Positions 2,330 to 34,888 of a stretch of 36,728 bases of DNA are shown here, in pieces. The stretch spans positions 6,056 to 42,783 of the forward strand of contig CAZDIF010000001.1 in assembly GCA_964505365.1 (NCBI GenBank), read 5' to 3'. Position 1 is the first letter of the stretch. Every line of letters starts with the position of its first letter. A program made the translations under genes and the position numbers. Below the pieces are notes generated by a model. The model saw only the letters and a list, made by a program, of their open reading frames with translations, did no database searches and was not told the DNA's origin. Origin of the DNA: an uncultured Actinomycetota bacterium (GTDB taxonomy: Bacteria > Actinomycetota > Nitriliruptoria > Nitriliruptorales > Nitriliruptoraceae).

Positions 2330-2585
2330 GACTTGCCCCTGGCCAGTAGGTCAATCCGAGGACGGACCGCCGCGAGACGGACCCCGCCTCCGCGAGAAGT
2401 GAGGGCCCCAGAGTTCACCCTATGGCGTCGGCCACCGGGCTCCTCATGCGCATGACGTAGACGCTGGATGGGATGAACATCGTAGGACGGGTACATCAAA
2501 TTGGGGACTTGAGTCCCACCGCCTGCTCGTACGGTGCAATCGACAGACGGACTCTCTTCAGGCCAGGGACGGGGCGCCTGTTTCT
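2330..2585. promoter_or_regulatory. Divergent intergenic region, with the probable promoter/leader of the plus-strand polysaccharide operon
   Basis: About 250-300 bp without plausible coding sequence between divergent genes. It holds the only locally A/T-richer patch (gtacatcaaatt, 2491..2502), a near-palindrome GGGACTtgAGTCCC at 2504..2517, and TCGTAG at 2480..2485 on the operon coding strand. Confidence 0.45.
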
Positions 2586-2633
2586 GTGGACCCGGCCGAC
2601 CACGGTCGCCGTCCGTCGACCAAGGGGCTTTCG

Positions 2634-3464
2634 ATGCAGATGGGGCAGAATCATCTGAGCACGGAAGGTCTGTTCGAGGCCTCCGAGATTGCTGCGACGC
2701 CGATCGAGGGCGGCAGGCCCTCGCGTAACACGTCCTGGGACGAGACCACGTCCTTCATGGTGGCCACGGAGACGGAACCCCGGCCCGGGTACCGCATCGC
2801 CAAGCGAGTGATCGAGACAAGCATCAGCTTGGCTGTGCTGACACTGCTGTCACCGGTACTGCTGCTTCTCCTTGCCCTTGTTCGGCTCGACAGCCCTGGC
2901 CCCGCCATCTATCGCCAGGACCGCCTGCACGGTCGTCGGGTGCGACGCGGAGACGGCTGGGTCTGGGTGGCGGAACCCTTCACCCTGCTGAAGCTTCGGA
3001 CCATGGTTGCGGACGCAGATCCACGGATCCACCGGGAGTACATGAGCGCGTACCTGTCACGGGACACCGAACGCCTGAAGGAACTCAATCCTGATCGCCG
3101 ACCAGGCGGATCCTTCCGACCAGCGGCCGATCCTCGCGTGACACGCATCGGCGCCTGGCTCCGTCGACTCAGCCTCGATGAAGTCCCGCAACTGTGGAAC
3201 GTGGTTCGTGGGGACATGGCACTGGTTGGACCTCGACCACCCATGCCGTACGAAGCGGAACTGTACGAGCCGTGGGATCGAAAGCGGCTGGCCTGCCCGT
3301 CCGGCGTCACGGGGTGGGCGCAGATCCGTGGCCGGGCAGGGATCGGCCGTGACGAGTTGTTCGCCCTTGACCTCGAATACCTGGAACAGCGCAGTCTGTG
3401 GGTCGACCTGAAGATCATGGTGCTGTCGGTTCCGGCTGTGCTGTTCATGAGGGGAGCAGATTGA
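2634..3464 (+). CDS. Priming phosphoglycosyl (bacterial sugar) transferase, WbaP/EpsL-type C-terminal domain family
   Basis: ORF track 2586..3464. A TM helix ISLAVLTLLSPVLLLLLALV is followed by the Bac_transf core DPRVTRIGAWLRRLSLDEVPQLWNVVRGDMALVGPRPP. The start is ambiguous (GTG 2586, ATG 2634 or ATG 2757). Confidence 0.85.
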   Translation: MQMGQNHLSTEGLFEASEIAATPIEGGRPSRNTSWDETTSFMVATETEPRPGYRIAKRVIETSISLAVLTLLSPVLLLLLALVRLDSPGPAIYRQDRLHGRRVRRGDGWVWVAEPFTLLKLRTMVADADPRIHREYMSAYLSRDTERLKELNPDRRPGGSFRPAADPRVTRIGAWLRRLSLDEVPQLWNVVRGDMALVGPRPPMPYEAELYEPWDRKRLACPSGVTGWAQIRGRAGIGRDELFALDLEYLEQRSLWVDLKIMVLSVPAVLFMRGAD

Positions 3465-3466
3465 CC

Positions 3467-4684
3467 ATGACCCGCGCACGCATTGCCGTGATCGGATGCG
3501 GCTACTGGGGCCCGAACATCATCCGGGTCCTTCATGAGCTTGCCGACGTCGATCTGGCGGCGGTGGCCGAACAGGACCCCGAGCGCCTCGAGTACCTGCG
3601 CGGCCGCTATCCCCAGTTGACGGTGACCTCGAACCACACGGACCTGTTCGGCATGCAACTCGACGCCGTCGTGGTCGCAACACCCCCACAGACGCATCAC
3701 CCAATTGTGACCGAATGCCTCGACCACGGGCTCGACGTGATGGTCGAGAAGCCACTGGCCACCGACACGGCAGACGCCCGTGCCCTGGCTCGGCAGGCCG
3801 ACCAGCTGGGCCGCGTCCTCATGGTCGGTCACATCGGCGTGTTCAACCCGGCCGTCCGTCACCTCAAGGAGATGATCAGCCGGGACGAGCTGGGCACGCT
3901 CCGGTACGTGGACGCCGTGCGGGCTGGGCTGGGCCTCTTCCACCCGTCCCTGAACGTCATCTGGGACCTCGCCCCCCACGACATCGCGATCATCTCGTAC
4001 CTGCTCGGGCAGACGCCCGACAGCGTGAGCGCCCGAGGTGTTGCCTGCGTTCGTGATGCACTCGAAGACCTTGCGTACCTGACCTTCACGTATCCCAGCG
4101 GGGTGTTGGCACACATCCGGATGAGCTGGCTGGACCCGTGCAAGACGCGCCGCATCACGGTCGTCGGCAGCTCCATGATGGCCGTTCACGACGATCTGGA
4201 GCCGCACGAGAAGGTCAAGGTCTACGACAAGCACGTTGACGTGAAGGGCCCGACGGACAGCTTCAGCGATTTCCAGTACGCCTACCACTACGGGAGCGCC
4301 GTGAGCCCATACATCGAGTTCGAGGAACCCCTCCGCCTCGAGCTCCAGCACTTCACCGATTGCGTTCGGGACCGTGCACTCCCGATCACGGATGCCTGGA
4401 GCGGCGTCGATGTCGTCGAGGCCATCGATGCCGCCCAGCGATCCCTGCGTGCTGGAGGCGTCCAACTCCCCGTCCACCTCCCGGCCCACGGCAGGGTGCA
4501 CAACGACCACCTGGACAACGGGAGCCCGGTACGCAACGGCCGTGTGCGCCAACACTCGAGAGTCGGCAGCCACGCAGCCGGAGGGGATCGGACCGACGAT
4601 GCCGAACCCATCGTCATCGACGAGCCCGTGACGAGCCTCTCCGCATCCATGCCCACACCGAACGGGGGACGGCCGTGGTCCTGA
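3467..4684 (+). CDS. Gfo/Idh/MocA-family NAD-dependent sugar oxidoreductase (WbpB/WlbA-like 3-dehydrogenase candidate)
   Basis: Rossmann N-terminus RIAVIGCGYWGPN and the family motif MVEKPLA. ATG 3467 lies 2 nt after the upstream stop. There is an unusual low-complexity C-terminal tail of about 70 aa (4470..4684) that keeps third-position G/C bias. Confidence 0.8.
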   Translation: MTRARIAVIGCGYWGPNIIRVLHELADVDLAAVAEQDPERLEYLRGRYPQLTVTSNHTDLFGMQLDAVVVATPPQTHHPIVTECLDHGLDVMVEKPLATDTADARALARQADQLGRVLMVGHIGVFNPAVRHLKEMISRDELGTLRYVDAVRAGLGLFHPSLNVIWDLAPHDIAIISYLLGQTPDSVSARGVACVRDALEDLAYLTFTYPSGVLAHIRMSWLDPCKTRRITVVGSSMMAVHDDLEPHEKVKVYDKHVDVKGPTDSFSDFQYAYHYGSAVSPYIEFEEPLRLELQHFTDCVRDRALPITDAWSGVDVVEAIDAAQRSLRAGGVQLPVHLPAHGRVHNDHLDNGSPVRNGRVRQHSRVGSHAAGGDRTDDAEPIVIDEPVTSLSASMPTPNGGRPWS

Positions 4685-5760
4685 TCGACTACCTGCGCAT
4701 CTTCGTCCGCTGGTGGTGGATCATCGTCCTCGCCAGCGTCCCGACGATCGCCACCACCTTCTACCTCGTGAACCAGCAGCCCGACGTGTTTGCCTCCGAG
4801 GGCACCATGGTGATTCGTCCGCGGGCGGTGGATCAGGAAGACGCACTGCGGGCCGTTGGCACCTTGATCCGGGGTGCCGAGATCAATTCCACCTATGCGG
4901 CGATCGCCCGGAGCGACGTGATCCGCCAGCGTGCCGCTGCTCGACTTGACGACCCGAGAATGCGCGACCTCGACATGACGACCGAGATCGTCACGGGCAC
5001 GAACATCCTGCGGATCGGCGTTACGGGCCCCGACCCAGCACTGGCCCACGAACTGGCGACGATCATGATGGATGAAGTTGCCACCTACGTGCAGGAAAGC
5101 GGGGACGCGTACCTTCTTACACCCTTGGACCTGCCGGATCTCTCTGACGATCCCGTTGCGCCCGATCGGCGGCTCACGATCGCGCTCGGCGTCGTGCTCG
5201 GGCTCAGCCTGGGCATGGGGCTGGCGTTGTTTGCGGAGAAACTCCACCGCGGACACGGCCCCATGCGTCCATGGAATCGCAGCGGCATCGCAGACGAAGA
5301 AGCGCTTCGCCGGACCGTCCACGACCAGATTGACCGCCTTGCGCTCCCCCGCCAGCGAGTGGCCTTCGCCACCCTCACCCTGTCACATGAGGAGCCTTCT
5401 GCCCACCAGCGCGACCGGACAGCGCGGATCGTCGCGGACGGTCTGCTCGCACACCTGCGCAACTCCATCGAGGTCGGCGTGCTCGATGACGGCACCATCG
5501 TCGCGGTCGTTCCCGAACCCGGGGTCGACGGGCTTCAGAGGGAGATCGTCGCCGTCCGCGACGCGGTCGCCCCCACGCTGGTCAACCGAGTGTCGGGATC
5601 GGTCCGGATGGTCAGCAGCGTCTGCATCTGCACCCAACAGGACAGAAGGGGCGACCCGAACGCCATGGAGGTCTTCCAGCACCTGGCCAAGCCTCACGAT
5701 CTGCCCAGGGCCAGGGTCCAGTACCTCGCGGGCACGTCCACGAACGGCAGGGGGACGTGA
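4675..5760 (+). CDS. Wzz-like polysaccharide co-polymerase (chain-length determinant) with a non-kinase cytoplasmic C-terminal domain
   Basis: The N-terminus LIDYLRIFVRWWWIIVLASVPTIATTFYLV (Wzz motif plus TM1) is followed by an extracytoplasmic loop of about 135 aa, then TM2 LTIALGVVLGLSLGMGLALFA. The remaining ~170 aa have no Walker A motif. The GTG 4675 start overlaps the upstream stop (4682..4684). The upstream part of ORF 4360..5760 is R/P-rich junk. Confidence 0.7.
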   Translation: MVLIDYLRIFVRWWWIIVLASVPTIATTFYLVNQQPDVFASEGTMVIRPRAVDQEDALRAVGTLIRGAEINSTYAAIARSDVIRQRAAARLDDPRMRDLDMTTEIVTGTNILRIGVTGPDPALAHELATIMMDEVATYVQESGDAYLLTPLDLPDLSDDPVAPDRRLTIALGVVLGLSLGMGLALFAEKLHRGHGPMRPWNRSGIADEEALRRTVHDQIDRLALPRQRVAFATLTLSHEEPSAHQRDRTARIVADGLLAHLRNSIEVGVLDDGTIVAVVPEPGVDGLQREIVAVRDAVAPTLVNRVSGSVRMVSSVCICTQQDRRGDPNAMEVFQHLAKPHDLPRARVQYLAGTSTNGRGT

Positions 5761-5824
5761 TCGGCCAGACACCTCCGATCGGTGCGACAGGCCGCGCCGC
5801 GGCGGCTTGGTGAAGGAGGCTGCG

Positions 5825-6787
5825 GTGACCACGCTGAGCGGGGTGTCCCCCATCTTCGTCACAGGACTCGACCACAGTGGCCGACACATCCTCGCCGGCT
5901 TGCTCGGGTCGCACCCGAACATCGCGATGACGTGTGGCCTCAACGTCTGGCCGCGCTTCGGCGGGGACCTGGCTGACCTGTCCGCACCAGAGGACCTGTC
6001 CCGGTGCATTTCGGTCCTGCGGGACCATCAACTCATCCGGGCGCTGGGCGTCGACCTCGACCTGGTCCGCGAGAACTTCCTCGACGCTGGCGAGCGCACC
6101 TATGCCCGGTTGCTGGCCCTCATCGGGCTGCAGCACGCGCACCGGAGGCACAAGTCCCGGTGGGCGGACACCTCACCAGCGATCGAACATCACGCGAGCG
6201 AGCTCCTCGCCGACTTCCCGGACGCCAGGATCCTGCACGTCGTGCGTGACCCACGCGACCACCTGGCATCCACAAGGGCAGGGACGGGGCACGGGAGGAC
6301 CGCGGGAAGGGACACGGCAAAGTGGCTGCGGTCGGTCCGCGTGGCCCGAGACCTCGCCGCCCGTGATCCCGACCACTACCGCGCCGTGAGGTACGAGGAC
6401 GTGATGAACGACCCCGGGGCCGTTCTCCAGTTCATCTGCAGCTTCATCGCGGAGGAGTACACGCCCTCCATGTTCGCCCTGCAGGGAACGCAGCGTTCCT
6501 GCGTCTGCGGTCTCTGGCCCCCGGAAGCATCAGAGGGGCCGGTCGGCCGGTACCTCGAGAGGCTGACCTCGACCCAGATCGCCGTCATCGAGCGGATGGC
6601 GGCGACCGACATGGCGGCGGCCGGCTACGAGCTCGTGAGCCCTCAGCTCACATCCCTTCGGAATCTGTGGTTCGCCATCGTGAGACTGCCGATGGAGGTC
6701 GCGATGGCACGGGCCTGGTCCTGGGGTGACGCGATGCGTCGCCGCCGAGGAAGCCTCCGGTCTCCTACCCAGAGGGCGCCCGCATGA
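5825..6787 (+). CDS. Sulfotransferase 1 (Sulfotransfer_3-like, PAPS-dependent)
   Basis: 5'-PSB-like loop IFVTGLDHSGRHIL, 3'-PB motif ARILHVVRDPRDHLAS and RYEDV. RBS GAAGGAGG at 5812..5819 lies 5 nt before GTG 5825 (alternative GTG 5810). The first ~250 codons of ORF 5072..6787 overlap the Wzz-like gene out of frame and are rejected. Confidence 0.8.
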   Translation: MTTLSGVSPIFVTGLDHSGRHILAGLLGSHPNIAMTCGLNVWPRFGGDLADLSAPEDLSRCISVLRDHQLIRALGVDLDLVRENFLDAGERTYARLLALIGLQHAHRRHKSRWADTSPAIEHHASELLADFPDARILHVVRDPRDHLASTRAGTGHGRTAGRDTAKWLRSVRVARDLAARDPDHYRAVRYEDVMNDPGAVLQFICSFIAEEYTPSMFALQGTQRSCVCGLWPPEASEGPVGRYLERLTSTQIAVIERMAATDMAAAGYELVSPQLTSLRNLWFAIVRLPMEVAMARAWSWGDAMRRRRGSLRSPTQRAPA

Positions 6788-8223
6788 CCCCCTCGACAGC
6801 GATCAGCCGCCTTCCTGCCCTCGTTCCGCGACCGAAGCTCCGCATGCTGTGGCCGGTACCGGTCGCCGTCGGATCCGGGGTGGTGTTTGGGGGCCTGGTC
6901 GCCGCTGGGCAGTGGCCAGTCGCCGTGACACTGCTCGTGATGGTGCCGGCGGTGACACTGCTCCACCGGGAGCCCCTGGCCGGCGTCGCGGCATGGCTGG
7001 TCCTCGCGCCGCTGGTCGTGAACACGGACCAGATGTCGATCCGCATGGTGTTCTGGATCGTGCACCGGCTCCTCCCCGTCGCGCTGCTGCTCGCCCTCGT
7101 CCTCCGACCCCTCGTCATCGAGAACACCCGACCCTTGAAGCGGCTCCGATGGGTGGACGCCCTGGCCGCCGGATACGTCGTGGCGGGCCTGATCTCCGTC
7201 GCCTACACGTCCCCAAGCGCCGGAGACGCGACGATCCACCTGTACGACAATGTCGCCATGCCGGTGTGCCTGTATGCGGCCGTGCGTCTCCTCGGACCCG
7301 ACCGGGACGAGATCCGTCGATGGCTGTTCCCGGCGATCGCCATTGCGCTTGCCATCCAGGTCGCGGTTGGTCTGGTCTCGTGGGGGATGCCGAGCCTTCT
7401 GCCGTCGGCCTGGGAGTCCATCGAGCCTCGGGCTCGGACCACCGGAACCGTGAGGTCGGTGTCCGTGTACGGGGTGACGGTCATCACCGGGGCACTCGTC
7501 CTCCTCGACGAGGCTGCCGCGGCGACGCGCTCCCTCCGGCGGGTCCTGGCGTACCTCGGTTTCACGGTCGCGGTCGGGATGGTGTTCCTCACGTTCTCAC
7601 GAGGCAGTTGGCTCGCAGGCCTGCTGGCAATCGGAGCGGCACTGCTGGTTCACCGGCGCATCGTCGGGCGCCTGGCCCTGATCGTCGGGATGGTCGCGAT
7701 CCTCGTGGTCTCCTCAGGCTTGCTGACCTCCCAGTTCCAGTTCGCATCCGAACGGCTCGACTCGGAACAGGCCGACGAGTCGGCACTGGCTCGACTTCCC
7801 GTCGCCCTTGCGTCGATGCGCATGCTCCAGGAACGACCGCTCACCGGGTTCGGGTACGAGAACTTCGACCGTTTCGACCGCCCATACCAGGGTCCCGTGA
7901 TGGGCTACTACCCCGAGAAGGACCACGCGTCACACAACCTCTACCTCACCCTGGCCGCGGAGCAGGGCGTCATCGGCCTCGTCCTGTTCGTGGCGCCCGT
8001 CGTGTATTGGTGGTCGCGGACTCGTGCGGCCCGTCGACGCGGCCCCCTTGACCCTGGCAACTCACGACTGACCTTGCTGCTCTGGTTGGCGCTGCTCGCC
8101 CACGTGGCCGTGAACAACTTCAGCAACATGCGGGTGTCGTTCGGCCTGGGGTTGTGGTGGCTCACGCTCGGGCTCGTCGCGTCGCTCGTGGCGTCCCACG
8201 AGGATGAGGCGGTGCGCTCGTGA
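6784..8223 (+). CDS. Wzy-type polysaccharide polymerase / O-antigen ligase-family membrane protein
   Basis: A polytopic hydrophobic protein of 479 aa. It has a central Wzy_C-like block (FLTFSRGSWLAGLLAIGAALL) and a large loop containing HNLYLTLAAEQG. Its start forms an ATGA overlap with the upstream stop. Confidence 0.8.
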   Translation: MTPSTAISRLPALVPRPKLRMLWPVPVAVGSGVVFGGLVAAGQWPVAVTLLVMVPAVTLLHREPLAGVAAWLVLAPLVVNTDQMSIRMVFWIVHRLLPVALLLALVLRPLVIENTRPLKRLRWVDALAAGYVVAGLISVAYTSPSAGDATIHLYDNVAMPVCLYAAVRLLGPDRDEIRRWLFPAIAIALAIQVAVGLVSWGMPSLLPSAWESIEPRARTTGTVRSVSVYGVTVITGALVLLDEAAAATRSLRRVLAYLGFTVAVGMVFLTFSRGSWLAGLLAIGAALLVHRRIVGRLALIVGMVAILVVSSGLLTSQFQFASERLDSEQADESALARLPVALASMRMLQERPLTGFGYENFDRFDRPYQGPVMGYYPEKDHASHNLYLTLAAEQGVIGLVLFVAPVVYWWSRTRAARRRGPLDPGNSRLTLLLWLALLAHVAVNNFSNMRVSFGLGLWWLTLGLVASLVASHEDEAVRS

Positions 8224-10504: not shown

Positions 10505-10509
10505 GTCCA

Positions 10510-11808: not shown

Positions 11809-11815
11809 GAACCGA

Positions 11816-15597: not shown

Positions 15598-15600
15598 GGC

Positions 15601-16491: not shown

Positions 16492-16498
16492 GGCTGTG

Positions 16499-26678: not shown

Positions 26679-26694
26679 CACGGTGGGGGCTGCG

Positions 26695-29582: not shown

Positions 29583-30599
29583 GTGCTCCTCCACTACGGG
29601 TTCGAATCGACTGGCCGCACACGCAACGTCGTGACCGGAGCCCGGAGCCGGAACGTGGTGGTCGCCACGTCGATCGGCCCCGTCCTGTTGAAGGAGTACC
29701 GCTCGGACTGGACGCCCGCGCGGGTGGAGCACACCCACTCCATCCTGATGCACCTCGAGACGACCTCCTCGCCCGCCCCACGCGTGATCCGACGCGAGGA
29801 TGGCGGCACGTGGACGCAGGTGAGTGGGGCCACCTACGCCCTGTTCTCCTTTGCCGCGGGGCGGAACCTCTCGATGGACCGTCTTCGACGGAAGGACCGA
29901 CTGCGGGCTGTCGGCGTGGCCGGCCGGGTGCTGGGGCGTCTGCACCGCGATCTTCACGGCTTCGTGCCCGGGGGTGAGCATCACCTCGGCTTCACCTCTC
30001 TCGACGGGCCCGAACGCATCCCGCTCGCGTGGTACGTCGATCGACTGTCCGAGTACGCGGACGCCGCCCTTCCCGGACCACTGGCAGCATTCTCCTCCCG
30101 GGCCGACGAACTGGCCCGTCGCCTGGCCGCACTGGACCGGGACCTGGCATCCGCGGCGCTTCCGCGGGTGGTCATTCACGGTGACTTCGGGCTGCACAAC
30201 CTGCTGTTCGAATCAACCCAGGTCGCGACGCCAGTGGACTTCGAACTTGCACGGATCGAGCACCGACTCACGGATGTACTGATGACGGTCTCTCGGTTCG
30301 GGTCGGGGCATGTCAGCTGGGACCTCCCCGCCATCGAGGCATTCCTCGCCGACTATGTTGCCGAAGCGCCAGCGGTCACCTCGGCGGAGCTCCGCCTGCT
30401 GCCGAGCCTGTGGGTCGTCGATCGACTGCGGTCGGCGATCAGGGCGGTCGACAACGTTCAACACGGTGGCGACGAGCGACATGTGGCTGCCGCGGCGCGC
30501 CGGCTCCGGGAGGCGGACTGGCTGGCGTCCGGTCCCGCACCTGTTCACCACGTGCGGGACGTCCTCGCTTCGCTGTCCTCGGCATCGATGAGTCGATAG
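29583..30599 (+). CDS. APH / choline-kinase / homoserine-kinase-II-family phosphotransferase
   Basis: GPVLLKEY (nucleotide-binding Lys region), the Brenner motif VVIHGDFGLHNLLF and PVDFELA (the DxD-equivalent). The start is uncertain (in-frame GTGs at 29583, 29472 and 29430). The 3' end overlaps the convergent sulfotransferase 5 by 55 nt. Confidence 0.7.
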   Translation: MLLHYGFESTGRTRNVVTGARSRNVVVATSIGPVLLKEYRSDWTPARVEHTHSILMHLETTSSPAPRVIRREDGGTWTQVSGATYALFSFAAGRNLSMDRLRRKDRLRAVGVAGRVLGRLHRDLHGFVPGGEHHLGFTSLDGPERIPLAWYVDRLSEYADAALPGPLAAFSSRADELARRLAALDRDLASAALPRVVIHGDFGLHNLLFESTQVATPVDFELARIEHRLTDVLMTVSRFGSGHVSWDLPAIEAFLADYVAEAPAVTSAELRLLPSLWVVDRLRSAIRAVDNVQHGGDERHVAAAARRLREADWLASGPAPVHHVRDVLASLSSASMSR

Positions 30600-31552
30600 G
30601 CGGGCAAGGGCTCACCGCGACGCCGTACGAGCCGGTCGCGGGTCTGCCACGCACGTGCGCGCACATACTCGACGGGCATGCTCCCGAACGTGAACTGCAG
30701 CTTGCTCGGCAGGGCCAGTCGGGGTCGTGTCCGTTCGTACCCGAGCTCCTGCATCTCCCTGCCCGCCATCCACTCGACGAAGCTGACCTGCGCCTCCGTG
30801 AGGACGTCACGGAAGCGGCCGATCGAATCGGTCGAGATCTCACCCGGTCGGCGCGGTTCGTAGGAGCTGTTGCCGCCCTGCTCGCGGAACCCGGGGGCTC
30901 CGCTCATCGACAGCATCTCCGGCGTGTACTCCTCGCCGAGGAAGGCACAGACCGCCTGCAGACACGTCTCCGGCTGGCGAGCGAGCGTCTCGTAGGTGAT
31001 GACCCGGTACTGCTCGGGATGCCGTTCCGAGAGCCGTCGGGCGAGGTGCACGGACCGCAGCCACTCCGCCGTCCCGGCCCCCACACCCCCGCGCCGTTGC
31101 CAGCGCGTGGCGGAGGATGCGAACCGGTCACGTGGATCTCGGACCATGTGGAGGATCCGCGCATCCGGGTACGCGGAGAGGATCTCGGCCGCGTGCCGTT
31201 CGGTCCCGAGGGACTTGTCCCCCCATCGCGGCTTGTCGAGCTTGGCCGCATACTGCTGCTCGATCAGCTCGAACAGACGGGCGTACGTGCGTTCGCCCCC
31301 TGCCAGGAAGTCCACGCGCAGTTTCTCGAAATCCGTGCCCAGGACGGTCAGTCGCTTGTAGCGACGCATGACCGAGAGGCAGTGGTCCAGGGCGACGGTG
31401 TCGGCGAGGTCGCCGTAGCGGCCGTAGAAGTACCGCCACAGGTTCGTGCGCCGCGTCATCGCAAGTCTGGGGTGGGATGCCAGGAGCGAGAAGATCAAGC
31501 TCGTCCCACTCCGCTCGAGCCCAGCGATGAAGACCGGTCCAGGCGCATTCAT
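30545..31552 (-). CDS. Sulfotransferase 5 (Sulfotransfer_3-like)
   Basis: PVFIAGLERSGTSLI, KPRWGDKS, ARILHMVRDPRDRFAS, ITYETLARQP and VCAFLGEEYTPEML. Confidence 0.85.
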   Translation of the reverse strand: MNAPGPVFIAGLERSGTSLIFSLLASHPRLAMTRRTNLWRYFYGRYGDLADTVALDHCLSVMRRYKRLTVLGTDFEKLRVDFLAGGERTYARLFELIEQQYAAKLDKPRWGDKSLGTERHAAEILSAYPDARILHMVRDPRDRFASSATRWQRRGGVGAGTAEWLRSVHLARRLSERHPEQYRVITYETLARQPETCLQAVCAFLGEEYTPEMLSMSGAPGFREQGGNSSYEPRRPGEISTDSIGRFRDVLTEAQVSFVEWMAGREMQELGYERTRPRLALPSKLQFTFGSMPVEYVRARAWQTRDRLVRRRGEPLPAYRLIDAEDSEARTSRTW

Positions 31553-32277
31553 GCGGTGCCTCGTCTGTCGTCGACTTCCCTGCCGCGGCTGTCCGTGACC
31601 ACCGACGACACGAAGCGCTGCCGACGCATCTCCGCGCGCATCGCGGGGTGCAGCTGCTCGCCCAGGAACTCACAGAGGTCCGTCAGGACTCCGATGGGAT
31701 CCGTCTGCAACTCGTGATCGCGCACGATCCGGTACCGGCCTCCGTGGCGCCGCAGATTGGCTCGCGCAAGCCACTCCGAGTGGGCCCACCGCGCGGCCTC
31801 CCGGGCAAGACGTCCGCGCCGCCACGGTGGCCAGGCGCCCACCGACGGATCGTGGTGCGGGATCCTGAGCAGATGGATGATGCGGGCGTCCGGGTACGCC
31901 GCGAACACCTCGTCGGCAAAACCCACGATGGAGCCGAGCTGCTCACCCCACCGTCTGGCACCGACCCGCTCGGCATGGTGCCGGTGCATCAGTCCGAACA
32001 GCCGACCGTAGGTCGGCGTGGTGAGTGCGAGCTCCTGTCGGATCCGATCGACGTCCGGCCGCAGCTGCTGCACGTGCGGATCCCGAAGCATCACGTCGAG
32101 GCACCTCGTGAGGTTGGCACGATCATCGAGGTCACCGAACCGGCCGTGGTACGTCGGCCACAGGTAGGTACGGCGAGTCATGCAGATCTCGGGATGAGCT
32201 TCCAGTGCCTGCCGGAGTTCCGTCTTCCCGGAACCTGCCAGTCCGCCGATCAGGATCGGGTTGTCCAGGCCGTTCAT
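31549..32277 (-). CDS. Sulfotransferase 6, a short paralogue with a degenerate 3'-PB motif
   Basis: PILIGGLAGSGKTEL and ARRWGEQL are present. However, ARIIHLLRIPHHDPS replaces the (V/M)VRDPRD motif, and the protein stops after 242 aa, whereas paralogues 1, 2, 4, 5 and 7 are 319-363 aa. Confidence 0.7.
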   Translation of the reverse strand: MNGLDNPILIGGLAGSGKTELRQALEAHPEICMTRRTYLWPTYHGRFGDLDDRANLTRCLDVMLRDPHVQQLRPDVDRIRQELALTTPTYGRLFGLMHRHHAERVGARRWGEQLGSIVGFADEVFAAYPDARIIHLLRIPHHDPSVGAWPPWRRGRLAREAARWAHSEWLARANLRRHGGRYRIVRDHELQTDPIGVLTDLCEFLGEQLHPAMRAEMRRQRFVSSVVTDSRGREVDDRRGTA

Positions 32278-33296
32278 GAGCCGGCCCCGCTACGCAGCAC
32301 CATGCGCTCGCCGGGTCGGCGGTGGACAACGGCCGGCAGTTGCTGCTGCAGCTGCTCGACGGTGCGCCACGTGAGCATCCGCATGGCTTGATCCGGCCAG
32401 TCGCGCAGGATGAACCGCACACGGTCCCGACCGGACATCGGCACGGGCTCCATGGCGTACCCGAACCGTCTCATCCGATGACGCAGCTGCTGCTGCATGA
32501 ACGCGAGCTCTGCCCCTGGCGCCGTCCGATCCCGCCCGATGAACTCGGTGGACAGGAGGCGACCGTCCTCGGCGGCTTCCGTGAGCCGCTCCCGATGCCT
32601 GGGGGCACCCGCCATTTCAAGCATCGCCGGCTCGAACGGCTCTCCCACGAAGTCACAGACGTCCTGGACGATTCGCGCCGGATCCTGTACCAGGTCCTCG
32701 AAACGAACGATGAGGTACCGGCCCGGGTAGCGCCGGCGGTGACGTTCTGCCAGCGCCGTCGAGTACCGCCATCGGGCGACCGCACCCCCGGCTCGGCCGC
32801 GACCCGTCGGCCACCGGGCCAGCGATGCTTCGTAGCGGTCACGTGGATCCCGCACCATGTGGATGATTCGGACGTCGGGATGCGCCGCCACCAGCCGATC
32901 CGCATACCGCTCGATCAGTCCGGTCTGCGCCCCCCATCTCGGCTTGCCGTGGCGCTGCGCGAAGTGGATGAGGAACAGGGCGAAGAGCCGTGCGTAGTCC
33001 CGTTCCCCCGTGACGAACTCACGTCGGATCCGGTCCTCGTCCGGCGAGAGGAACCGCACGTGCTTGTAGCTGAGCATCGCCGACAGGCAACGCTCGAAGT
33101 TCTCGTCGTGGCTGAGGTCGCCGTACTGCCCGTGGAAGTAGGTCCACATGTTCGACCCGACGGCGGGGATGGCGATCCGTGAGTGCGACGTGAGGAATGC
33201 ACTCATCGTCGTCTTGCCGGACCGGTCGAGCCCACCGACGTAGATGGGGGCGGGATGCACCTCCAGCATGGCTTCCGCCTCGACCTCGGTCCTCAT
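32274..33296 (-). CDS. Sulfotransferase 7 (Sulfotransfer_3-like)
   Basis: The start is ATG 33296 (ATGA overlap with the wzx stop). Motifs PIYVGGLDRSGKTTM, KPRWGAQT, VRIIHMVRDPRDRYEA, VRFEDLVQDP and VCDFVGEPFEPAML. The upstream 285 codons of ORF 32274..34151 are rejected. Confidence 0.85.
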   Translation of the reverse strand: MRTEVEAEAMLEVHPAPIYVGGLDRSGKTTMSAFLTSHSRIAIPAVGSNMWTYFHGQYGDLSHDENFERCLSAMLSYKHVRFLSPDEDRIRREFVTGERDYARLFALFLIHFAQRHGKPRWGAQTGLIERYADRLVAAHPDVRIIHMVRDPRDRYEASLARWPTGRGRAGGAVARWRYSTALAERHRRRYPGRYLIVRFEDLVQDPARIVQDVCDFVGEPFEPAMLEMAGAPRHRERLTEAAEDGRLLSTEFIGRDRTAPGAELAFMQQQLRHRMRRFGYAMEPVPMSGRDRVRFILRDWPDQAMRMLTWRTVEQLQQQLPAVVHRRPGERMVLRSGAGS

Positions 33297-34888
33297 GCGG
33301 TGGTGTCCTCCCGATCGTGGGTGTTGCCCGTCTGGAAGCGCGAGATCCCGGCTCGCCGACCGGCGGCGCCCATGACGTGGCGAAGGATGAATCGGTCGTC
33401 GGGGTCCAGTCCGAGCAGGACGAGCACGCCGAGGTACGTCGTCCCCATGACCACGACGTCCGCCAGTGCGCTGGCGACGTGTACCTCGCTCCACAACCCG
33501 CCCAACGCCCGGCTTGCCACGGCGGCGGCAGCAGCGGCAGCGAGCGGCTTGAGGTAGCCGAGGTCGAAGGGTTGGAGACGTTCGAGCCACCAGACCTGGA
33601 CGACGGCCAGGACGTTCACCGTCGTCGTGGCGGCCAGCGTTGCGAAGGCGGCCCCAAGGAGTCCGTACCGGGGGATCAGGAGCACGTCCCCGCCGATCAG
33701 GATGACGGTGAACAGCACGGAGTGCAGCAATTTCAGGCCGGATCGCCCCGTCATGTCGATCATCGAACGGCAGATGCCCGTGCCGGCATTCACGAGTTCG
33801 GCCAGCACGAGCACCGTCATCGCCGTCGCACCGACCTGGAACGCGGTGCCGAATATGCCCAGGATCGGCTCCGCAAGCGTCGCCACGACGACGAAGAACG
33901 GCAGGTACAGCGTCAACGTCCAGCGGGTCGCGCTCCGGTAGAGGTTGCCCAGTCCCTCGCGGTCGCCCTGGTCGTGCATCCTCGCCAGCACGGGCTTCAC
34001 CGCAACGAAGATCGACTGCAGTACGACCTGCCCGACGACCGTGACCCGTTCGAGGATGGCGTACACACCGACGCCCGCCACGTTCAACGTGACACCGAGC
34101 ACGATGCTCTGGATGCGGCCTCGGCCCTGTCGGAGGATCCCGGAGAGCCACAGCGGCATGGCGAAGCCGAAGACCGGTCGCACGTCACGCCGCACCGGGC
34201 CCCTGGCCACATCGCCGACCTCGACTGCCTGGCGGTGCAGCATGACGAGGAAGGTCGCGGACGCGGCCACATCTGACAACCCGTAGATGATCACGGCCAA
34301 CATGACGTCGACCTGTCCCACGAGCGCAAGGAGCGCGAGGAGGCCAAGGCGCACGAGTGACTGGACGACATTCTCGCTCACGGCGGGGATGTCCATCCGC
34401 TCGAAGCCCCGTGCGACGCCCTGGAGCATGTTGCTGAGCGTCAGGAAGGGGATCAGCAGCGCCATCACGCGGAGCAGCGTTGCGAGCTCGGGCTCCTCGA
34501 ACAGGCCTGTCGCGATGGGATCGGCCAAGAGGTAGCCGGCTACGCCCATGACGACGGCGCCGAGCAGGCTCAGCCCGATCCCGATCTGCAGGGTTCCCAG
34601 CAGTCCCGGCCGGTCCCGACGCGTCGCGAGTATCGAGACGTACCGCACCATGGCATCGTCAAGGCCCATGGCCGCGACGCTCGCGAAGAGGGCACCTGTA
34701 CCGAGGGCGAGCACGTAGAGCCCGTAGTCCCCGGGGCTCAGTAGCCGAGCCAGCAGCAGCGCGACGAAGAAGCGGGTGAAGTACTCGAACGCCTTGCCGC
34801 CAGCGATGAAGCCACCACCGCGGACGACGTTCAGGGCTTCATGACGCCGCTTGTCGCTCTCGACCGACGGCGCGGTGGTCGATGTCAT
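33293..34888 (-). CDS. Wzx-type flippase (MOP superfamily polysaccharide biosynthesis protein)
   Basis: 531 aa with about 12-14 hydrophobic helices. The N-terminal block GGGFIAGGKAFEYFTRFFVALLLARLLSPGDYGLYVLAL is typical of Polysacc_synt/Wzx proteins. RBS GAAGGG lies upstream of ATG 34888. Confidence 0.85.
   Translation of the reverse strand: MTSTTAPSVESDKRRHEALNVVRGGGFIAGGKAFEYFTRFFVALLLARLLSPGDYGLYVLALGTGALFASVAAMGLDDAMVRYVSILATRRDRPGLLGTLQIGIGLSLLGAVVMGVAGYLLADPIATGLFEEPELATLLRVMALLIPFLTLSNMLQGVARGFERMDIPAVSENVVQSLVRLGLLALLALVGQVDVMLAVIIYGLSDVAASATFLVMLHRQAVEVGDVARGPVRRDVRPVFGFAMPLWLSGILRQGRGRIQSIVLGVTLNVAGVGVYAILERVTVVGQVVLQSIFVAVKPVLARMHDQGDREGLGNLYRSATRWTLTLYLPFFVVVATLAEPILGIFGTAFQVGATAMTVLVLAELVNAGTGICRSMIDMTGRSGLKLLHSVLFTVILIGGDVLLIPRYGLLGAAFATLAATTTVNVLAVVQVWWLERLQPFDLGYLKPLAAAAAAAVASRALGGLWSEVHVASALADVVVMGTTYLGVLVLLGLDPDDRFILRHVMGAAGRRAGISRFQTGNTHDREDTTA

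What the first reader, a model, noticed from the sequence alone, without database searches (positions are those of the whole stretch)
2586..34888. One Wzx/Wzy locus encodes sulfation, C-P phosphonate synthesis, uronic-acid/amino-sugar synthesis and aminoacyl-type tailoring
A single contiguous, tightly coupled gene set contains a complete assembly core: a priming transferase, 4 GT-B glycosyltransferases, Wzx, Wzy and a Wzz-like protein. It also carries 7 sulfotransferases, a CysC-like protein, PepM plus a 2-hydroxyacid dehydrogenase, a methyltransferase, 4 further kinase-like proteins, an ATP-grasp ligase, a FemAB-like transferase and a CE4 deacetylase. Sulfated bacterial polysaccharides and phosphonoglycans are each uncommon. 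I am not aware of a characterised locus that predicts both on the same polymer. With about 5 sugar-adding enzymes and 7 sulfotransferases, the repeat unit could carry more than one sulfate per sugar in addition to carboxylate and phosphonate groups, making it an extreme polyanion.
Basis: partly seen in the sequence, partly recalled or inferred. Interest (0 to 1): 0.85.

Follow-up and report, generated by a model that had tools for sequence, protein, structure and literature searches.

The report
Sulfated polysaccharide locus with phosphonate module
An uncultured, probably actinobacterial, genome carries one tightly packed 30-gene sugar-polymer locus that combines seven sulfate-adding enzymes with a portable gene module for making a carbon-phosphorus acid (phosphonolactate), a combination I could not find described anywhere, though whether both end up on the same polymer is predicted, not shown.

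Summary
Window 2634-34888 is 99% coding and holds 30 genes, with 22 of 29 junctions overlapping. They include a priming transferase, Wzx, Wzy, a weak Wzz-like protein, 4 GT4 glycosyltransferases, 7 Sulfotransfer_3 genes, a true PepM (EDKxxxxxNS, above the NCBIfam cutoff) next to a PGDH-like 2-hydroxyacid dehydrogenase, and the listed tailoring genes.

Corrections:
- A hexapeptide acetyltransferase at 21927-22502 was missed. It completes a WbpB/E/D-like 3-amino-sugar route.
- The "CysC-like" protein belongs to a conserved clade that lacks the catalytic DGD motif. It travels with sulfotransferases but is probably not a standard APS kinase.
- The ATP-grasp ligase, FemAB-like transferase, methyltransferase and thymidylate-kinase-like protein are not generic tailoring. 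With 2HADH-PepM they form a portable module found in at least 20 other loci across several phyla, including cultured Pelobacter propionicus.

The kinase and ligase occur fused elsewhere. A near-syntenic locus (L104) lacks only 2HADH-PepM.

No Ppd, AEP transaminase or LicC/LicD-type activation is present, so the route is phosphonolactate, and attachment is probably an amide bond made by the ligase (inferred).

Multi-sulfotransferase plus PepM occurs only in the window, L001 and L003. The module also occurs outside glycan loci, so "same polymer" remains unproven.

Verdict: new variant of known kinds.

The parts
2634..3464 (+). Priming polyprenyl-phosphate sugar-phosphate transferase (Bac_transf). 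An alternative GTG start lies at 2586.
   Evidence: Pfam PF02397, 166 bits. TIGR03025 EPS_sugtrans, 220 bits, below its cutoff.
3467..4684 (+). GFO/IDH/MocA oxidoreductase. WbpB/GnnA-like C3 dehydrogenase acting on a UDP-2-acetamido sugar.
   Evidence: Pfam PF01408 and PF22725. Best NCBIfam hit is UDP-GlcNAc 3-dehydrogenase, 190 bits, below its cutoff.
4675..5760 (+). Wzz/PCP-like chain-length protein. Weak call.
   Evidence: GNVR E=1.2e-3. pepcterm_ChnLen E=7.5e-6, far below its cutoff. Two hydrophobic segments and a Pro-rich motif are visible in the translation.
5810..6787 (+). Sulfotransferase ST1. The 5'-PSB loop deviates (DHSGRH).
   Evidence: Sulfotransfer_3, 78 bits. Alignment.
6784..8223 (+). 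Wzy-type polymerase (Wzy_C).
   Evidence: PF04932, 76 bits against a 31.7 cutoff.
8220..9452 (+). GT4 glycosyltransferase GTa.
   Evidence: PF00534, 130 bits.
9449..10504 (+). GT4-like glycosyltransferase GTb.
   Evidence: PF13524 and PF13439. 57% identical to its L001 orthologue.
10501..11808 (+). NDP-sugar 6-dehydrogenase, closest to UDP-glucose dehydrogenases.
   Evidence: TIGR03026, 374 bits against a 189.8 cutoff. AglM and TuaD are the best equivalogs.
11816..12841 (-). FemAB-like / Acetyltransf_6 transferase. Member of the module.
   Evidence: PF13480, 91 bits, and PF02388, 55 bits. PDB sequence hits to FemX and to an aminoacyl-tRNA-dependent peptide synthase. 52% identical to the Pelobacter orthologue.
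12838..14097 (-). ATP-grasp carboxylate-amine ligase. Sources name family members 'D-aspartate ligase'. Member of the module.
   Evidence: NCBIfam weak hit, 1e-8. AlphaFold pLDDT 92.4. Foldseek gives the ATP-grasp fold. 1706 homologues. 59% identical to the Pelobacter orthologue.
14094..14876 (-). Thymidylate-kinase-like P-loop kinase. Member of the module.
   Evidence: PF02223, 32 bits. All top-50 Foldseek matches are TMP kinases. Invariant GxDGxGKT and DR(Y/H) motifs. Fused to the ATP-grasp in P0138, P0145 and P0149.
14842..15597 (-). SAM methyltransferase with an N-terminal CPCCGW...CPRC zinc ribbon. Member of the module.
   Evidence: PF08241. Alignment A1. Adjacent to the TMPK-like gene in 16 loci.
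15601..16491 (-). PEP mutase (PepM/Ppm).
   Evidence: PF13714, 222 bits. TIGR02320, 383.9 bits against a 319.55 cutoff. [10 protein letters not shown] motif.
16499..17485 (-). PGDH-like D-2-hydroxyacid dehydrogenase. Inferred phosphonopyruvate reductase of the VlpB type.
   Evidence: PF02826, 174 bits. Best NCBIfam hit is PGDH, 262 bits, below its cutoff. Adjacent to PepM in at least 19 loci.
17482..18882 (-). GT4 glycosyltransferase GTc. Overlaps the 2HADH start by 4 nt.
   Evidence: PF13579 and PF13692. Junction table.
18882..20189 (-). CE4 polysaccharide deacetylase.
   Evidence: PF01522, 59 bits. TIGR03006 weak hit.
20186..20836 (-). Divergent APS-kinase-like P-loop protein. Walker A is intact but the DGD motif is missing.
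   Evidence: PF01583, 84 bits. Below all NCBIfam apsK cutoffs. Alignments. Adjacent to sulfotransferases in about 10 metagenomic loci.
20833..21930 (-). DegT/WbpE-like sugar aminotransferase.
   Evidence: PF01041, 398 bits.
21927..22502 (-). Hexapeptide-repeat sugar N-acetyltransferase (WbpD/NeuD-like).
   Evidence: 75% identical to the L001 Hexapep gene by tblastn. TIGR03570, 91 bits, below its cutoff.
22492..23583 (-). Sulfotransferase ST2, with canonical motifs.
   Evidence: Sulfotransfer_3, 125 bits. Nearest PDB relatives are the CurM/OLS sulfotransferase domains and TPST.
23573..24496 (-). Sulfotransferase ST3, a distinct subfamily.
   Evidence: Sulfotransfer_3, 55 bits. Alignment.
24493..25452 (-). 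Sulfotransferase ST4.
   Evidence: Sulfotransfer_3, 95 bits.
25449..26681 (-). GT4 glycosyltransferase GTd.
   Evidence: PF00534, 136 bits.
26695..27549 (-). P-loop kinase-like protein of unknown substrate.
   Evidence: Only weak AAA and kinase hits.
27539..29110 (-). Two-domain protein: a weak NTP_transf_5 (PF14907) N-terminal region plus a TMPK-like P-loop C-terminal region.
   Evidence: Full-length 28% homologue in L031. Homologue at the end of L104.
29430..30599 (+). APH-family (eukaryotic-like) kinase. The only + strand gene in the right half of the locus.
   Evidence: PF01636, 84 bits. Weak PDB sequence hits to homoserine kinase and N-acetylhexosamine 1-kinase.
30545..31552 (-). Sulfotransferase ST5.
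   Evidence: Sulfotransfer_3, 100 bits.
31549..32277 (-). Short sulfotransferase-like ST6 with a deviant 3'-PB motif.
   Evidence: Sulfotransfer_3, 56 bits. Alignment.
32274..33296 (-). Sulfotransferase ST7.
   Evidence: Sulfotransfer_3, 86 bits.
33293..34888 (-). Wzx flippase (Polysacc_synt/MOP family).
   Evidence: PF01943, 84 bits, and PF13440, 73 bits.

Best explanation
The window holds a Wzx/Wzy-dependent heteropolysaccharide locus from an uncultured, high-GC bacterium, probably Actinomycetota. It is built from four separable modules.

1. Assembly core: priming transferase, 4 GT4 glycosyltransferases, Wzx, Wzy and a possible Wzz. Shown by domain content.

2. Sugar-precursor module: a Ugd-like dehydrogenase gives a uronic acid. 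GFO, DegT and Hexapep give a 3-acetamido sugar by WbpB/E/D-type logic. CE4 can expose a free amine. Inferred from families.

3. Sulfation module: 7 Sulfotransfer_3 paralogues, 4 with fully canonical PAPS motifs. A conserved APS-kinase-like partner always travels with such sulfotransferases but lacks the catalytic DGD motif. PAPS is probably supplied from elsewhere in the genome. Inferred.

4. Portable phosphonate module at the 3' end of the long minus-strand operon.
- PepM converts PEP to phosphonopyruvate.
- The adjacent PGDH-like dehydrogenase pulls the unfavourable equilibrium by reducing it to phosphonolactate. There is no Ppd and no transaminase.
- The ATP-grasp carboxylate-amine ligase then most likely couples the phosphonolactate carboxylate to an amine. 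That amine would be a sugar amino group, or an amino acid installed by the FemAB-like transferase. The result would be an amide-linked C-P side group.
- The TMPK-like kinase is fused to the ligase in relatives, so the two act together. The kinase and the methyltransferase would modify the phosphonate by phosphorylation or methyl esterification.

Steps shown here: gene content, motifs, folds, synteny, co-occurrence and gene fusion.
Steps inferred: phosphonopyruvate reduction, the ligase substrate, the acceptor, and that sulfate and phosphonate sit on one polymer.

Sub-confidences:
- Functional sulfotransferases plus phosphonolactate synthesis: about 0.8.
- Both on the same polymer: about 0.5.
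- Amide linkage through the ATP-grasp: about 0.3.
For: - Domain inventory.
- PepM is genuine. It has the [10 protein letters not shown] motif and scores 383.9 bits on TIGR02320 against a 319.55 cutoff.
- There is no room for a Ppd gene. The region is 99% coding and every ORF is assigned.
- 2-Hacid_dh next to Ppm without Ppd is the published VlpB/PnLac branch criterion (PMC8942020).
- 2HADH-PepM adjacency is conserved in L001-L004, L006-L009, L011-L018, L100 and L102.
- ATP-grasp and FemAB-like orthologues at 46-66% identity travel with 2HADH-PepM across Actinomycetota, Planctomycetota, Geobacteraceae and Proteobacteria. They are the only other genes in the Pelobacter propionicus operon.
- TMPK-like::ATP-grasp fusion proteins exist. 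The window genes are in the same order with a 4-nt overlap.
- ATP-grasp fold confirmed. TMPK fold and DR(Y/H) motif confirmed.
- GTc overlaps 2HADH by 4 nt, so the module is translationally coupled to a glycosyltransferase.
- 16 of 21 module loci have glycan genes within 10 kb.
- L104 is syntenic to the window but lacks only 2HADH-PepM between GTc and MT.
- All 7 sulfotransferases are above the Pfam gathering score. Their nearest solved relatives are PAPS-dependent.
- The APS-kinase-like clade is adjacent to sulfotransferases in about 10 metagenomic loci.
Against: - There is no biochemical or structural-chemistry evidence. The organism is uncultured.
- The module also occurs away from any glycan genes: Pelobacter propionicus among NAD synthase, Glu synthase and EF-G genes, and L006 among aconitase, helicase and FecCD genes. 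In L008 it lies directly after an NRPS. So it does not need a polysaccharide acceptor.
- The ATP-grasp/FemAB/MT/TMPK set exists without PepM in L104, and the ATP-grasp alone in L026. So these enzymes need not use a phosphonate.
- No recognisable phosphonate-activating nucleotidyltransferase or LicD-type transferase is present (compared with PMC6697681).
- The APS-kinase-like protein lacks catalytic residues, and no ATP sulfurylase is in the window, so the PAPS supply is unproven.
- Three sulfotransferases have deviant PAPS motifs.
Confidence: 0.5

Rival explanations
1. The phosphonate module is a self-contained pathway whose product is not attached to the sulfated polysaccharide. It would make either a free phosphonolactyl-amino-acid or peptide-type natural product, or a modification of another acceptor such as the peptidoglycan stem peptide. 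It only shares an operon with the polysaccharide genes in this lineage.
For: - The module is stand-alone among housekeeping genes in cultured Pelobacter propionicus and in L006.
- In L008 it sits directly downstream of an NRPS with A-MT-PCP-TE domains.
- ATP-grasp family members are named D-aspartate ligase, a peptidoglycan-branch enzyme, by JGI.
- The FemAB-like protein's nearest solved relatives are lipid II:glycine glycyltransferase and an aminoacyl-tRNA-dependent peptide synthase.
- ATP-grasp ligases and tRNA-dependent FemX-like enzymes build phosphonopeptides such as the phosphonoalamides and dehydrophos. The ATP-grasp precedent is cited in PMC8942020. The dehydrophos precedent rests on my own knowledge.
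Against: - 16 of 21 module loci lie inside glycan loci across several phyla.
- In the window the module is translationally coupled to a GT4 gene and sits at the end of an 18-gene polysaccharide operon.
- No exporter or self-resistance gene accompanies it.
- L102 has a GT1 gene directly after the ATP-grasp.
Confidence: 0.3
2. The ATP-grasp, FemAB-like, TMPK-like and methyltransferase genes are a phosphonate-independent tailoring set, for example adding amino acids or another acid to amino or uronic sugars. Phosphonolactate would be made next to them but attached by a different, unrecognised enzyme, such as GTc or one of the other kinase-like proteins.
For: - L104 has MT, TMPK::ATP-grasp and three FemAB-like genes in an otherwise syntenic sulfated-EPS-type locus, with no PepM or 2HADH in the 22 kb seen.
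- L026 has the ATP-grasp without PepM.
- L006 and L007 have the PepM module without the ATP-grasp.
- More distant MT homologues sit in glycan loci without PepM in L019-L021.
Against: - In Pelobacter propionicus and L102 the ATP-grasp, with or without FemAB-like, is the only partner of 2HADH-PepM, so something in that pair must process the phosphonate.
- PepM in L104 could lie in the roughly 6 kb of the contig that I did not see.
This suggests co-location but is indirect.
Confidence: 0.12
3. The locus is a mis-assembled or decaying mosaic, and the co-occurrence of sulfation and phosphonate genes has no functional meaning.
For: - A GC step, 72-73% at about 19-29 kb against 67-68% in the flanks.
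- The APH gene is inverted relative to L001.
- Several paralogues have degenerate motifs.
Against: - The same gene order spans both GC zones in the independent contigs L001 and L003, at 40-77% amino-acid identity.
- All genes are intact ORFs with the expected GC3 bias and overlapping start/stop junctions.
Confidence: 0.03

Closest known systems
VlpB-type (phosphonolactate) branch of phosphonate biosynthesis. Examples are valinophos vlpAB in Streptomyces durhamensis, and the uncharacterised Pcar_0628/0629 pair in Pelobacter carbinolicus.
   Same: PepM sits immediately next to a PGDH-like 2-hydroxyacid dehydrogenase with no phosphonopyruvate decarboxylase. This is the criterion used by Li & Horsman 2022 (PMC8942020). 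[quoted passage not shown]
   Different: The window has no vlpCDE-like genes (PGK-, GAPDH- or reductase-like), so it does not encode the dihydroxypropylphosphonate route. Here the pair is joined to an ATP-grasp ligase, a FemAB-like transferase, a TMPK-like kinase and a methyltransferase, and it is embedded in a polysaccharide operon.
Phosphonoglycan loci with nucleotidyl activation. Examples are Bacteroides fragilis polysaccharide B (AEP) and the PntC/LicC-type systems of Rice et al. 2019.
   Same: PepM lies inside a cell-surface glycan locus, so a C-P decoration of a polysaccharide is expected.
   Different: The window has no Ppd, no AEP transaminase, no PF12804/PF01467 nucleotidyltransferase fused to or near PepM, and no LicD-type transferase. 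The phosphonate here carries a carboxylate, so an amide linkage through a ligase is plausible instead of a phosphonoester.
Sulfated exopolysaccharide loci. Examples are the synechan xss cluster of Synechocystis 6803 and the wps-1 cluster of Actinoplanes missouriensis.
   Same: These are Wzx/Wzy-dependent loci with sulfotransferases embedded among the glycosyltransferases. wps-1 also has a methyltransferase, a kinase-like protein and a neighbouring SAT/APS-kinase family gene, and it is actinobacterial (PMC13390465; PMC8205485).
   Different: wps-1 has 2 sulfotransferases, against 7 here. Neither known locus has PepM or the ATP-grasp/FemAB/TMPK module. The APS-kinase-like gene here lacks the catalytic motif.
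'GCF 540' of Li & Horsman 2022.
   Same: Ppm is flanked by a thymidylate kinase and an uncharacterised PF14907 nucleotidyltransferase. The window has a TMPK-like gene two genes from PepM, and a protein that combines a weak PF14907 match with a P-loop domain at 27539-29110.
   Different: The family's composition and organisms could not be checked, because the supplement is not held. It is uncharacterised, so it provides no mechanism.
WbpA/B/E/D pathway (UDP-2,3-diacetamido-2,3-dideoxy-glucuronate) and GnnA/GnnB (UDP-GlcNAc3N).
   Same: A GFO-family dehydrogenase, a DegT aminotransferase and a hexapeptide N-acetyltransferase occur together with a sugar 6-dehydrogenase.
   Different: The dehydrogenase scores best as a UDP-glucose dehydrogenase rather than a UDP-GlcNAc dehydrogenase. 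Whether the 3-amino sugar is a uronic acid is therefore undetermined. All of these proteins score below the equivalog cutoffs.

Membership tests
Wzx/Wzy-dependent polysaccharide locus | Polyprenyl-phosphate priming transferase | tested here: met
   PF02397, 166 bits.
Wzx/Wzy-dependent polysaccharide locus | Wzx (MOP-family flippase) and Wzy (Wzy_C polymerase) | tested here: met
   PF01943 and PF13440. PF04932, 76 bits against a 31.7 cutoff.
Wzx/Wzy-dependent polysaccharide locus | Chain-length regulator (Wzz/PCP) | tested here: inconclusive
   GNVR scores 19 bits against a 27.7 cutoff. TIGR03007 scores 24 bits against 279. The membrane topology is suggestive only.
PEP mutase (true PepM/Ppm) | EDK(x5)NS active-site motif | tested here: met
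   [10 protein letters not shown] is present in the translation.
PEP mutase (true PepM/Ppm) | Score above the curated equivalog cutoff, and higher than for sister families (PPH, methylisocitrate lyase, CPEP mutase) | tested here: met
   TIGR02320 scores 383.9 bits against a 319.55 cutoff. PPH scores 249 against 374, and prpB scores 148.
PEP mutase (true PepM/Ppm) | Catalytic conversion of PEP to phosphonopyruvate | not testable with these tools
   Needs an enzyme assay.
VlpB-type phosphonolactate branch | A 2-Hacid_dh_C enzyme encoded with Ppm, and no Ppd | tested here: met
   PF02826, 174 bits, 7 nt from PepM. No TPP-enzyme domain is found in any ORF. The criterion comes from PMC8942020.
Valinophos/DHPPA pathway (vlpABCDE) | PGK-like kinase, GAPDH-like reductase and alcohol dehydrogenase downstream of VlpB | tested here: not met
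   None of these domains is found in the window.
Pnt-type phosphonoglycan tailoring (Rice et al. 2019) | A PF12804 or PF01467 nucleotidyltransferase fused to or near Ppm | tested here: not met
   PepM is a stand-alone 296-aa protein. There are no such Pfam hits.
AEP pathway | Phosphonopyruvate decarboxylase and AEP transaminase | tested here: not met
   Both are absent from the window. They could be elsewhere in the genome, which was not seen.
PAPS-dependent sulfotransferase (Sulfotransfer_3) | Pfam score above the gathering threshold | tested here: met
   All 7 score 55-125 bits against a cutoff of 27.
PAPS-dependent sulfotransferase (Sulfotransfer_3) | 5'-PSB loop (xRSG[T/K][T/S]) and 3'-PB motif (RDPRDxxxS) | tested here: inconclusive
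   ST2, ST4, ST5 and ST7 are canonical. ST1 has a deviant 5'-PSB loop. ST3 belongs to a different subfamily. ST6 has a deviant 3'-PB motif, and its L001 orthologue lacks that motif.
APS kinase (CysC) | Walker A P-loop | tested here: met
   GRSGAGKST is present.
APS kinase (CysC) | LDGDxxR catalytic/Mg motif, LGFSxxDRxEN APS-binding motif and KGLYKKA lid | tested here: not met
   A 3-residue deletion removes the G-D. The APS-binding motif is replaced by the conserved sequence ERTSEGKLLRK. The lid is replaced by an Arg-rich insert. About 20 clade members share these changes, while canonical APS kinases picked up by the same scan keep the motifs. The protein also scores below all NCBIfam cutoffs.
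ATP-grasp carboxylate-amine ligase | Three-domain ATP-grasp fold | tested here: met
   Model pLDDT 92.4. 439 PDB matches at E<=1e-3, all ATP-grasp enzymes.
ATP-grasp carboxylate-amine ligase | Identity of the acyl and amine substrates | not testable with these tools
   No close characterised relative.
FemABX aminoacyl-tRNA transferases | FemAB / Acetyltransf_6 domain | tested here: met
   PF13480, 91 bits against 22. PF02388, 55 bits against 24.
FemABX aminoacyl-tRNA transferases | Use of aminoacyl-tRNA as the donor | not testable with these tools
   Needs an assay.
Thymidylate kinase (dTMP kinase) | NMP-kinase fold with the P-loop and DR(Y/H) motif | tested here: met
   All top-50 Foldseek matches are TMP kinases. 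Invariant GxDGxGKT and D141-R142.
Thymidylate kinase (dTMP kinase) | Equivalog-level sequence score, meaning a bona fide dTMP kinase | tested here: not met
   TIGR00041 scores 28 bits against a cutoff of 83. A roughly 65-residue helical insertion is absent from TMP kinases.
WbpB/E/D-type 3-acetamido-sugar pathway | GFO dehydrogenase, DegT aminotransferase and hexapeptide N-acetyltransferase together | tested here: met
   The substrate, whether a uronic acid or not, was not determined.

The most novel reading that the evidence does not exclude
The locus builds a bacterial polysaccharide that carries O- or N-sulfate, carboxylate and an amide-linked phosphonolactate side group together. Phosphonolactate is a non-hydrolysable C-P mimic of 3-phosphoglycerate. 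It would be installed by a previously unrecognised ligase-based attachment route: an ATP-grasp working with a fused or coupled TMPK-like kinase, a FemAB-like transferase and a methyltransferase. This route would replace the known CMP-activation/LicD route. The same portable module would decorate glycans, and perhaps peptidoglycan or peptides, in Planctomycetota, Desulfuromonadales, Acidimicrobiia and others.
Probability: 0.3. Interest if true: 0.85.

Novelty: new variant of a known kind. Interest (0 to 1): 0.65.

Why it matters
Phosphonoglycans and bacterial sulfated polysaccharides are each rare and poorly understood. The only understood way of attaching phosphonates to glycans is nucleotidyl activation of AEP-type molecules.

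This locus and its relatives point to a second route based on phosphonolactate, with a conserved ligase/kinase/methyltransferase/FemAB-like toolkit. That route is widespread in uncultured soil and aquatic bacteria and also occurs in cultured Pelobacter species, where it can be tested directly.

If the phosphonate is polymer-bound, it would add to the recalcitrant C-P pool in soils and sediments. It would also define a new kind of heparin-like polyanion.

The divergent APS-kinase-like clade that always accompanies these sulfotransferases is a separate open question for bacterial sulfation biochemistry.

Tried and rejected
- I looked for the source contig using the window's own PepM (with V or M as first residue) and the ATP-grasp (P0121). 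Nothing is on record. Only the contig length, 42,783 bp, is known.
- The valinophos paper (PMC9284248) and the supplements of Li & Horsman are not held. VlpB could therefore not be compared directly, and GCF 540 could not be identified.
- PDB sequence searches with the ATP-grasp, FemAB-like, TMPK-like, MT and APH proteins gave no close characterised relative.
- Rfam, the tRNA scan and the promoter/terminator scan found nothing.
- AEP/Ppd route: rejected, because the genes are absent.
- Valinophos-type DHPPA route: rejected, because there are no vlpCDE analogues.
- CMP-activation route: rejected, because there is no PF12804 or PF01467 domain.
- The idea that the TMPK-like protein is a cryptic sulfotransferase or APS kinase: rejected, because the fold search returns only TMP kinases.
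- The idea that the CysC-like gene is an ordinary APS kinase: rejected, because the motifs are missing in a conserved clade.
- Chimeric assembly: rejected, because three independent contigs are syntenic.
- My first assumption was that the six-gene module is always in glycan loci. This was corrected after Pfam scans of the L006 and L008 flanks and the Pelobacter context.

Full report
**Gene model and observation.**
The window is 67-73% GC. I chose real frames by the GC1/GC2/GC3 pattern and scanned every plausible ORF against Pfam and NCBIfam. After refining start codons, positions 2634-34888 hold 30 genes, and 99% of the region is coding. Of the 29 junctions, 22 are overlaps, and 14 of those are the 4-nt ATGA/GTGA type.
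- Bac_transf priming transferase, Wzy_C and a Wzx flippase
- a weak Wzz-like protein, below all curated cutoffs
- four GT4 glycosyltransferases
- seven Sulfotransfer_3 genes, all above the Pfam gathering score
- an APS-kinase-like gene
- PEP_mutase next to a 2-Hacid_dh gene
- a class I methyltransferase
- four further kinase-like proteins (TMPK-like, two P-loop proteins, APH)
- a FemAB/Acetyltransf_6 protein, a CE4 deacetylase, a GFO oxidoreductase, a DegT aminotransferase and an NDP-sugar dehydrogenase

An AlphaFold model (pLDDT 92.4) matches only ATP-grasp enzymes in the PDB, so that call is confirmed.

One gene was missed. A hexapeptide-repeat acetyltransferase at 21927-22502 (-) fills the gap between DegT and ST2 and is 75% identical to its counterpart in a related contig.

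The genes form about four transcription blocks rather than one: + 2634-11808, - 29110-11816, + APH, and - 34888-30545. Rfam, tRNA and promoter/terminator scans found nothing.

**Is PepM real, and which branch is it?**
The protein carries the [10 protein letters not shown] motif. It scores 383.9 bits on the NCBIfam PEP-mutase equivalog, against a cutoff of 319.55, and well above its scores for phosphonopyruvate hydrolase and methylisocitrate lyase. No ORF has a TPP-enzyme (Ppd) domain, an AEP transaminase, or a PF12804/PF01467 nucleotidyltransferase, and there is no unassigned space for one.

The neighbouring dehydrogenase starts 7 nt after PepM ends. It is most similar to 3-phosphoglycerate dehydrogenase. 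Its GxGxxG motif and its catalytic Arg, Glu and His are visible in the translation. PepM with a 2-Hacid_dh enzyme and no Ppd is the published criterion for the VlpB-type branch, in which phosphonopyruvate is reduced to phosphonolactate (PMC8942020; PMC12871164). The remaining valinophos genes are absent, so this is not the dihydroxypropylphosphonate pathway.

**Related loci.**
PepM is highly conserved, with many hits at 70-77% identity.
- L001 (soil metagenome ERZ1761213) is syntenic with the window over about 20 genes at 42-77% amino-acid identity.
- L002 keeps 2HADH-PepM-MT-TMPK-like.
- A scan of GTDB species genomes with the cassette-specific methyltransferase returned 23 loci, all from MAGs.
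- A tblastn matrix shows a recurrent module of 2HADH, PepM, MT, TMPK-like, ATP-grasp and FemAB-like. It occurs in Actinomycetota/Acidimicrobiia (L003, L005-L007, L010), Geobacteraceae (L004), Pirellulaceae and other Planctomycetota (L008-L017) and a proteobacterial MAG (L018).
- Cultured Pelobacter propionicus DSM 2379 has a minimal operon of 2HADH, PepM, ATP-grasp and FemAB-like, with orthologues at 52-73% identity, sitting among housekeeping genes.
- L102 has 2HADH, PepM, ATP-grasp and GT1.
- Li & Horsman mention an uncharacterised family in which Ppm is flanked by a thymidylate kinase and a PF14907 nucleotidyltransferase.

**Links inside the module.**
The ATP-grasp family is large, with 1706 proteins at E<=1e-20. 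Sources name its members D-aspartate ligase or carboxylate-amine ligase. At least five clusters are fusions of an N-terminal TMPK-like domain with a C-terminal ATP-grasp. That is the same order as the two adjacent window genes, which overlap by 4 nt.

The TMPK-like model (pLDDT 80) matches only thymidylate kinases among its top 50 PDB hits. The family keeps the P-loop and the DR(Y/H) motif. It scores far below the dTMP-kinase equivalog cutoff, so it is not a dTMP kinase.

L104 carries one of the fusion proteins. It is otherwise syntenic with the window: Wzy, GTs, Ugd, GTc, MT, TMPK::ATP-grasp, three FemAB-like genes, ST, CE4, DegT, Hexapep, Wzx and a homologue of the 27539-29110 protein, at 44-70% identity. 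In L104, GTc is followed directly by MT. Relative to L104, the window therefore has a two-gene 2HADH-PepM insertion.

Together with L026 (ATP-grasp without PepM) and L006/L007 (module without ATP-grasp), this shows three separable pairs:
- 2HADH with PepM
- MT with TMPK-like
- ATP-grasp with FemAB-like

The last pair is the common partner of PepM where nothing else is present.

**Sulfation module.**
Four sulfotransferases (ST2, ST4, ST5, ST7) have canonical 5'-PSB and 3'-PB motifs. ST1, ST3 and ST6 deviate. The nearest solved relatives of ST2 are PAPS-dependent enzymes.

The CysC-like protein's best PDB relative is the APS-kinase domain of Aquifex SAT/APSK, but it falls below every NCBIfam apsK cutoff. 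Alignments show that the window protein, its L001 orthologue and about 18 metagenomic homologues form a clade with these features:
- Walker A is intact.
- A 3-residue deletion removes the Gly-Asp of LDGDxxR.
- A conserved ERTSEGKLLRK sequence replaces LGFSxxDRxEN.
- An Arg-rich insert replaces the KGLYKKA lid.

Canonical APS kinases found by the same scan keep all of these motifs. The divergent clade lies next to Sulfotransfer_3 genes in essentially every contig long enough to judge, mostly without PepM. It therefore belongs to the sulfation module, but its chemistry is unknown. No ATP sulfurylase is in the window.

**How widespread is the combination?**
A sulfotransferase HMM built from 12 sequences finds multiple sulfotransferases together with the PepM module only in the window (7), L001 (at least 5 within 21 kb) and L003 (4). 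L002 has a single weak hit, and so does L010. Full-text searches found no paper that links phosphonoglycans or PEP mutase with sulfotransferases in one locus. The closest genetically studied actinobacterial system is Actinoplanes wps-1, which has Wzx/Wzy, 2 sulfotransferases, a methyltransferase, a kinase-like gene and a neighbouring SAT/APSK gene, but no phosphonate genes.

**Mechanism.**
The best-supported reading is that PepM and the PGDH-like reductase make phosphonolactate. The ATP-grasp, working with the TMPK-like kinase, couples the phosphonolactate carboxylate to an amine. That amine would be a sugar amine from the GFO/DegT route or from CE4 deacetylation, or an amino acid installed by the FemAB-like enzyme. 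The kinase and methyltransferase would modify the phosphonate. The sulfotransferases would decorate the same repeat unit.

Support for a glycan acceptor:
- GTc and 2HADH are translationally coupled.
- 16 of 21 module loci have glycan genes within 10 kb.
- GFO-Hexapep-DegT lies directly upstream of the module in L004 and L018.

Evidence against a glycan acceptor: the module stands alone in Pelobacter and L006, and it follows an NRPS in L008. A free phosphonopeptide-like product or a peptidoglycan modification is therefore a serious rival, which I put at about 0.3.

**Verdict.**
The combination of sulfation and C-P synthesis in one operon set is real, rare (three loci found) and undescribed. Placement of both groups on one polymer, the charge density, and PAPS supply by the CysC-like gene all remain unproven.

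I classify it as a new variant of known kinds: sulfated EPS loci, phosphonoglycan loci and the VlpB branch. The more general result is the portable phosphonolactate/ligase module, which is present in cultured Pelobacter and therefore directly testable.

Interest: 0.65.

Noticed in passing
window 20186-20836 (-); L001 5931-6521; L026-L043: A conserved clade of APS-kinase-like proteins has an intact Walker A. It lacks the catalytic Gly-Asp of LDGD and the LGFSxxDR APS-binding motif, which is replaced by ERTSEGKLLRK. Its members always lie next to Sulfotransfer_3 genes. The function is unknown.
   Followed up: yes
It completes a GFO/DegT/Hexapep (WbpB/E/D-like) 3-acetamido-sugar set.
   Followed up: yes
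P0138, P0139, P0144, P0145, P0149; L104 10001-11989: Natural fusion proteins of a TMPK-like kinase (N-terminal) with the ATP-grasp ligase (C-terminal). This is Rosetta-stone evidence that the two adjacent window genes act together.
   Followed up: yes
L104 7928-9927, compared with window 14842-18882: Presence/absence polymorphism. An otherwise syntenic locus has GTc directly followed by MT, whereas the window has 2HADH-PepM inserted between them.
   Followed up: partly
L100 (Pelobacter propionicus CP000482.1, about 2,336,028-2,340,469): A cultured bacterium carries a stand-alone 2HADH-PepM-ATP-grasp-FemAB-like operon among housekeeping genes. P. carbinolicus has the PepM/PGDH-like pair (Pcar_0628/0629). 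Either species could serve for experimental tests.
   Followed up: partly
L008 3-8201, upstream of the module at 8624-15490: In a Pirellulaceae MAG the module lies directly downstream of a protein of more than 2700 aa; the C-terminal 1067 residues scanned carry NRPS-type domains (AMP-binding, methyltransferase, PCP, thioesterase). This hints at a peptide natural-product context in that lineage.
   Followed up: no
L008 11502-12263; L009 12151-12906: Planctomycete versions of the module carry an extra gene of about 250 aa between the TMPK-like gene and 2HADH. It has weak similarity to FlmR/OhkR-family peptide arginases. The window has no such gene.
   Followed up: no
window about 19000-29000, compared with the flanks: A GC step. 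The block from CE4 to the 27539-29110 gene is 72-73% GC, against 67-68% elsewhere. Syntenic L001 is uniformly 73-77% GC. This may mean the block came from a relative with higher GC.
   Followed up: partly
window 27539-29110 (-); L031 2455-3948; L104 21786-end: A two-domain protein, with a weak PF14907 nucleotidyltransferase match followed by a TMPK-like P-loop region, recurs in sulfotransferase-bearing loci. It echoes the 'thymidylate kinase + PF14907' neighbours of Ppm noted by Li & Horsman as GCF 540.
   Followed up: partly
window 29430-30599 (+), compared with 30545-31552 (-): The APH-family kinase is the only + strand gene in the right half of the locus. Its 3' end overlaps the 3' end of ST5 by 55 nt in a convergent arrangement. 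It is inverted relative to its position in L001.
   Followed up: no
window 2-2350 (-) and 35169-36728 (-): The locus is flanked by genes for large repeat proteins: He_PIG/PKD/NHL on one side and a weak TSP3-repeat match on the other. These are likely secreted or surface proteins, and both run off the window.
   Followed up: no
L026 about 11100-12089: In a PepM-less sulfation locus the ATP-grasp is followed by a protein with a GWTKGGKTEALL P-loop that, by eye, resembles HprK-related kinases (no family or structure search was run on it).
   Followed up: no
L003 12758-15933; L004 12681-14753; L009, L011 and L012 downstream of PepM; L104 12045-15218: FemAB-like genes are often present in 2-3 tandem paralogues, as in the FemX/A/B system. 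This would be compatible with stepwise building of a short peptide branch.
   Followed up: no
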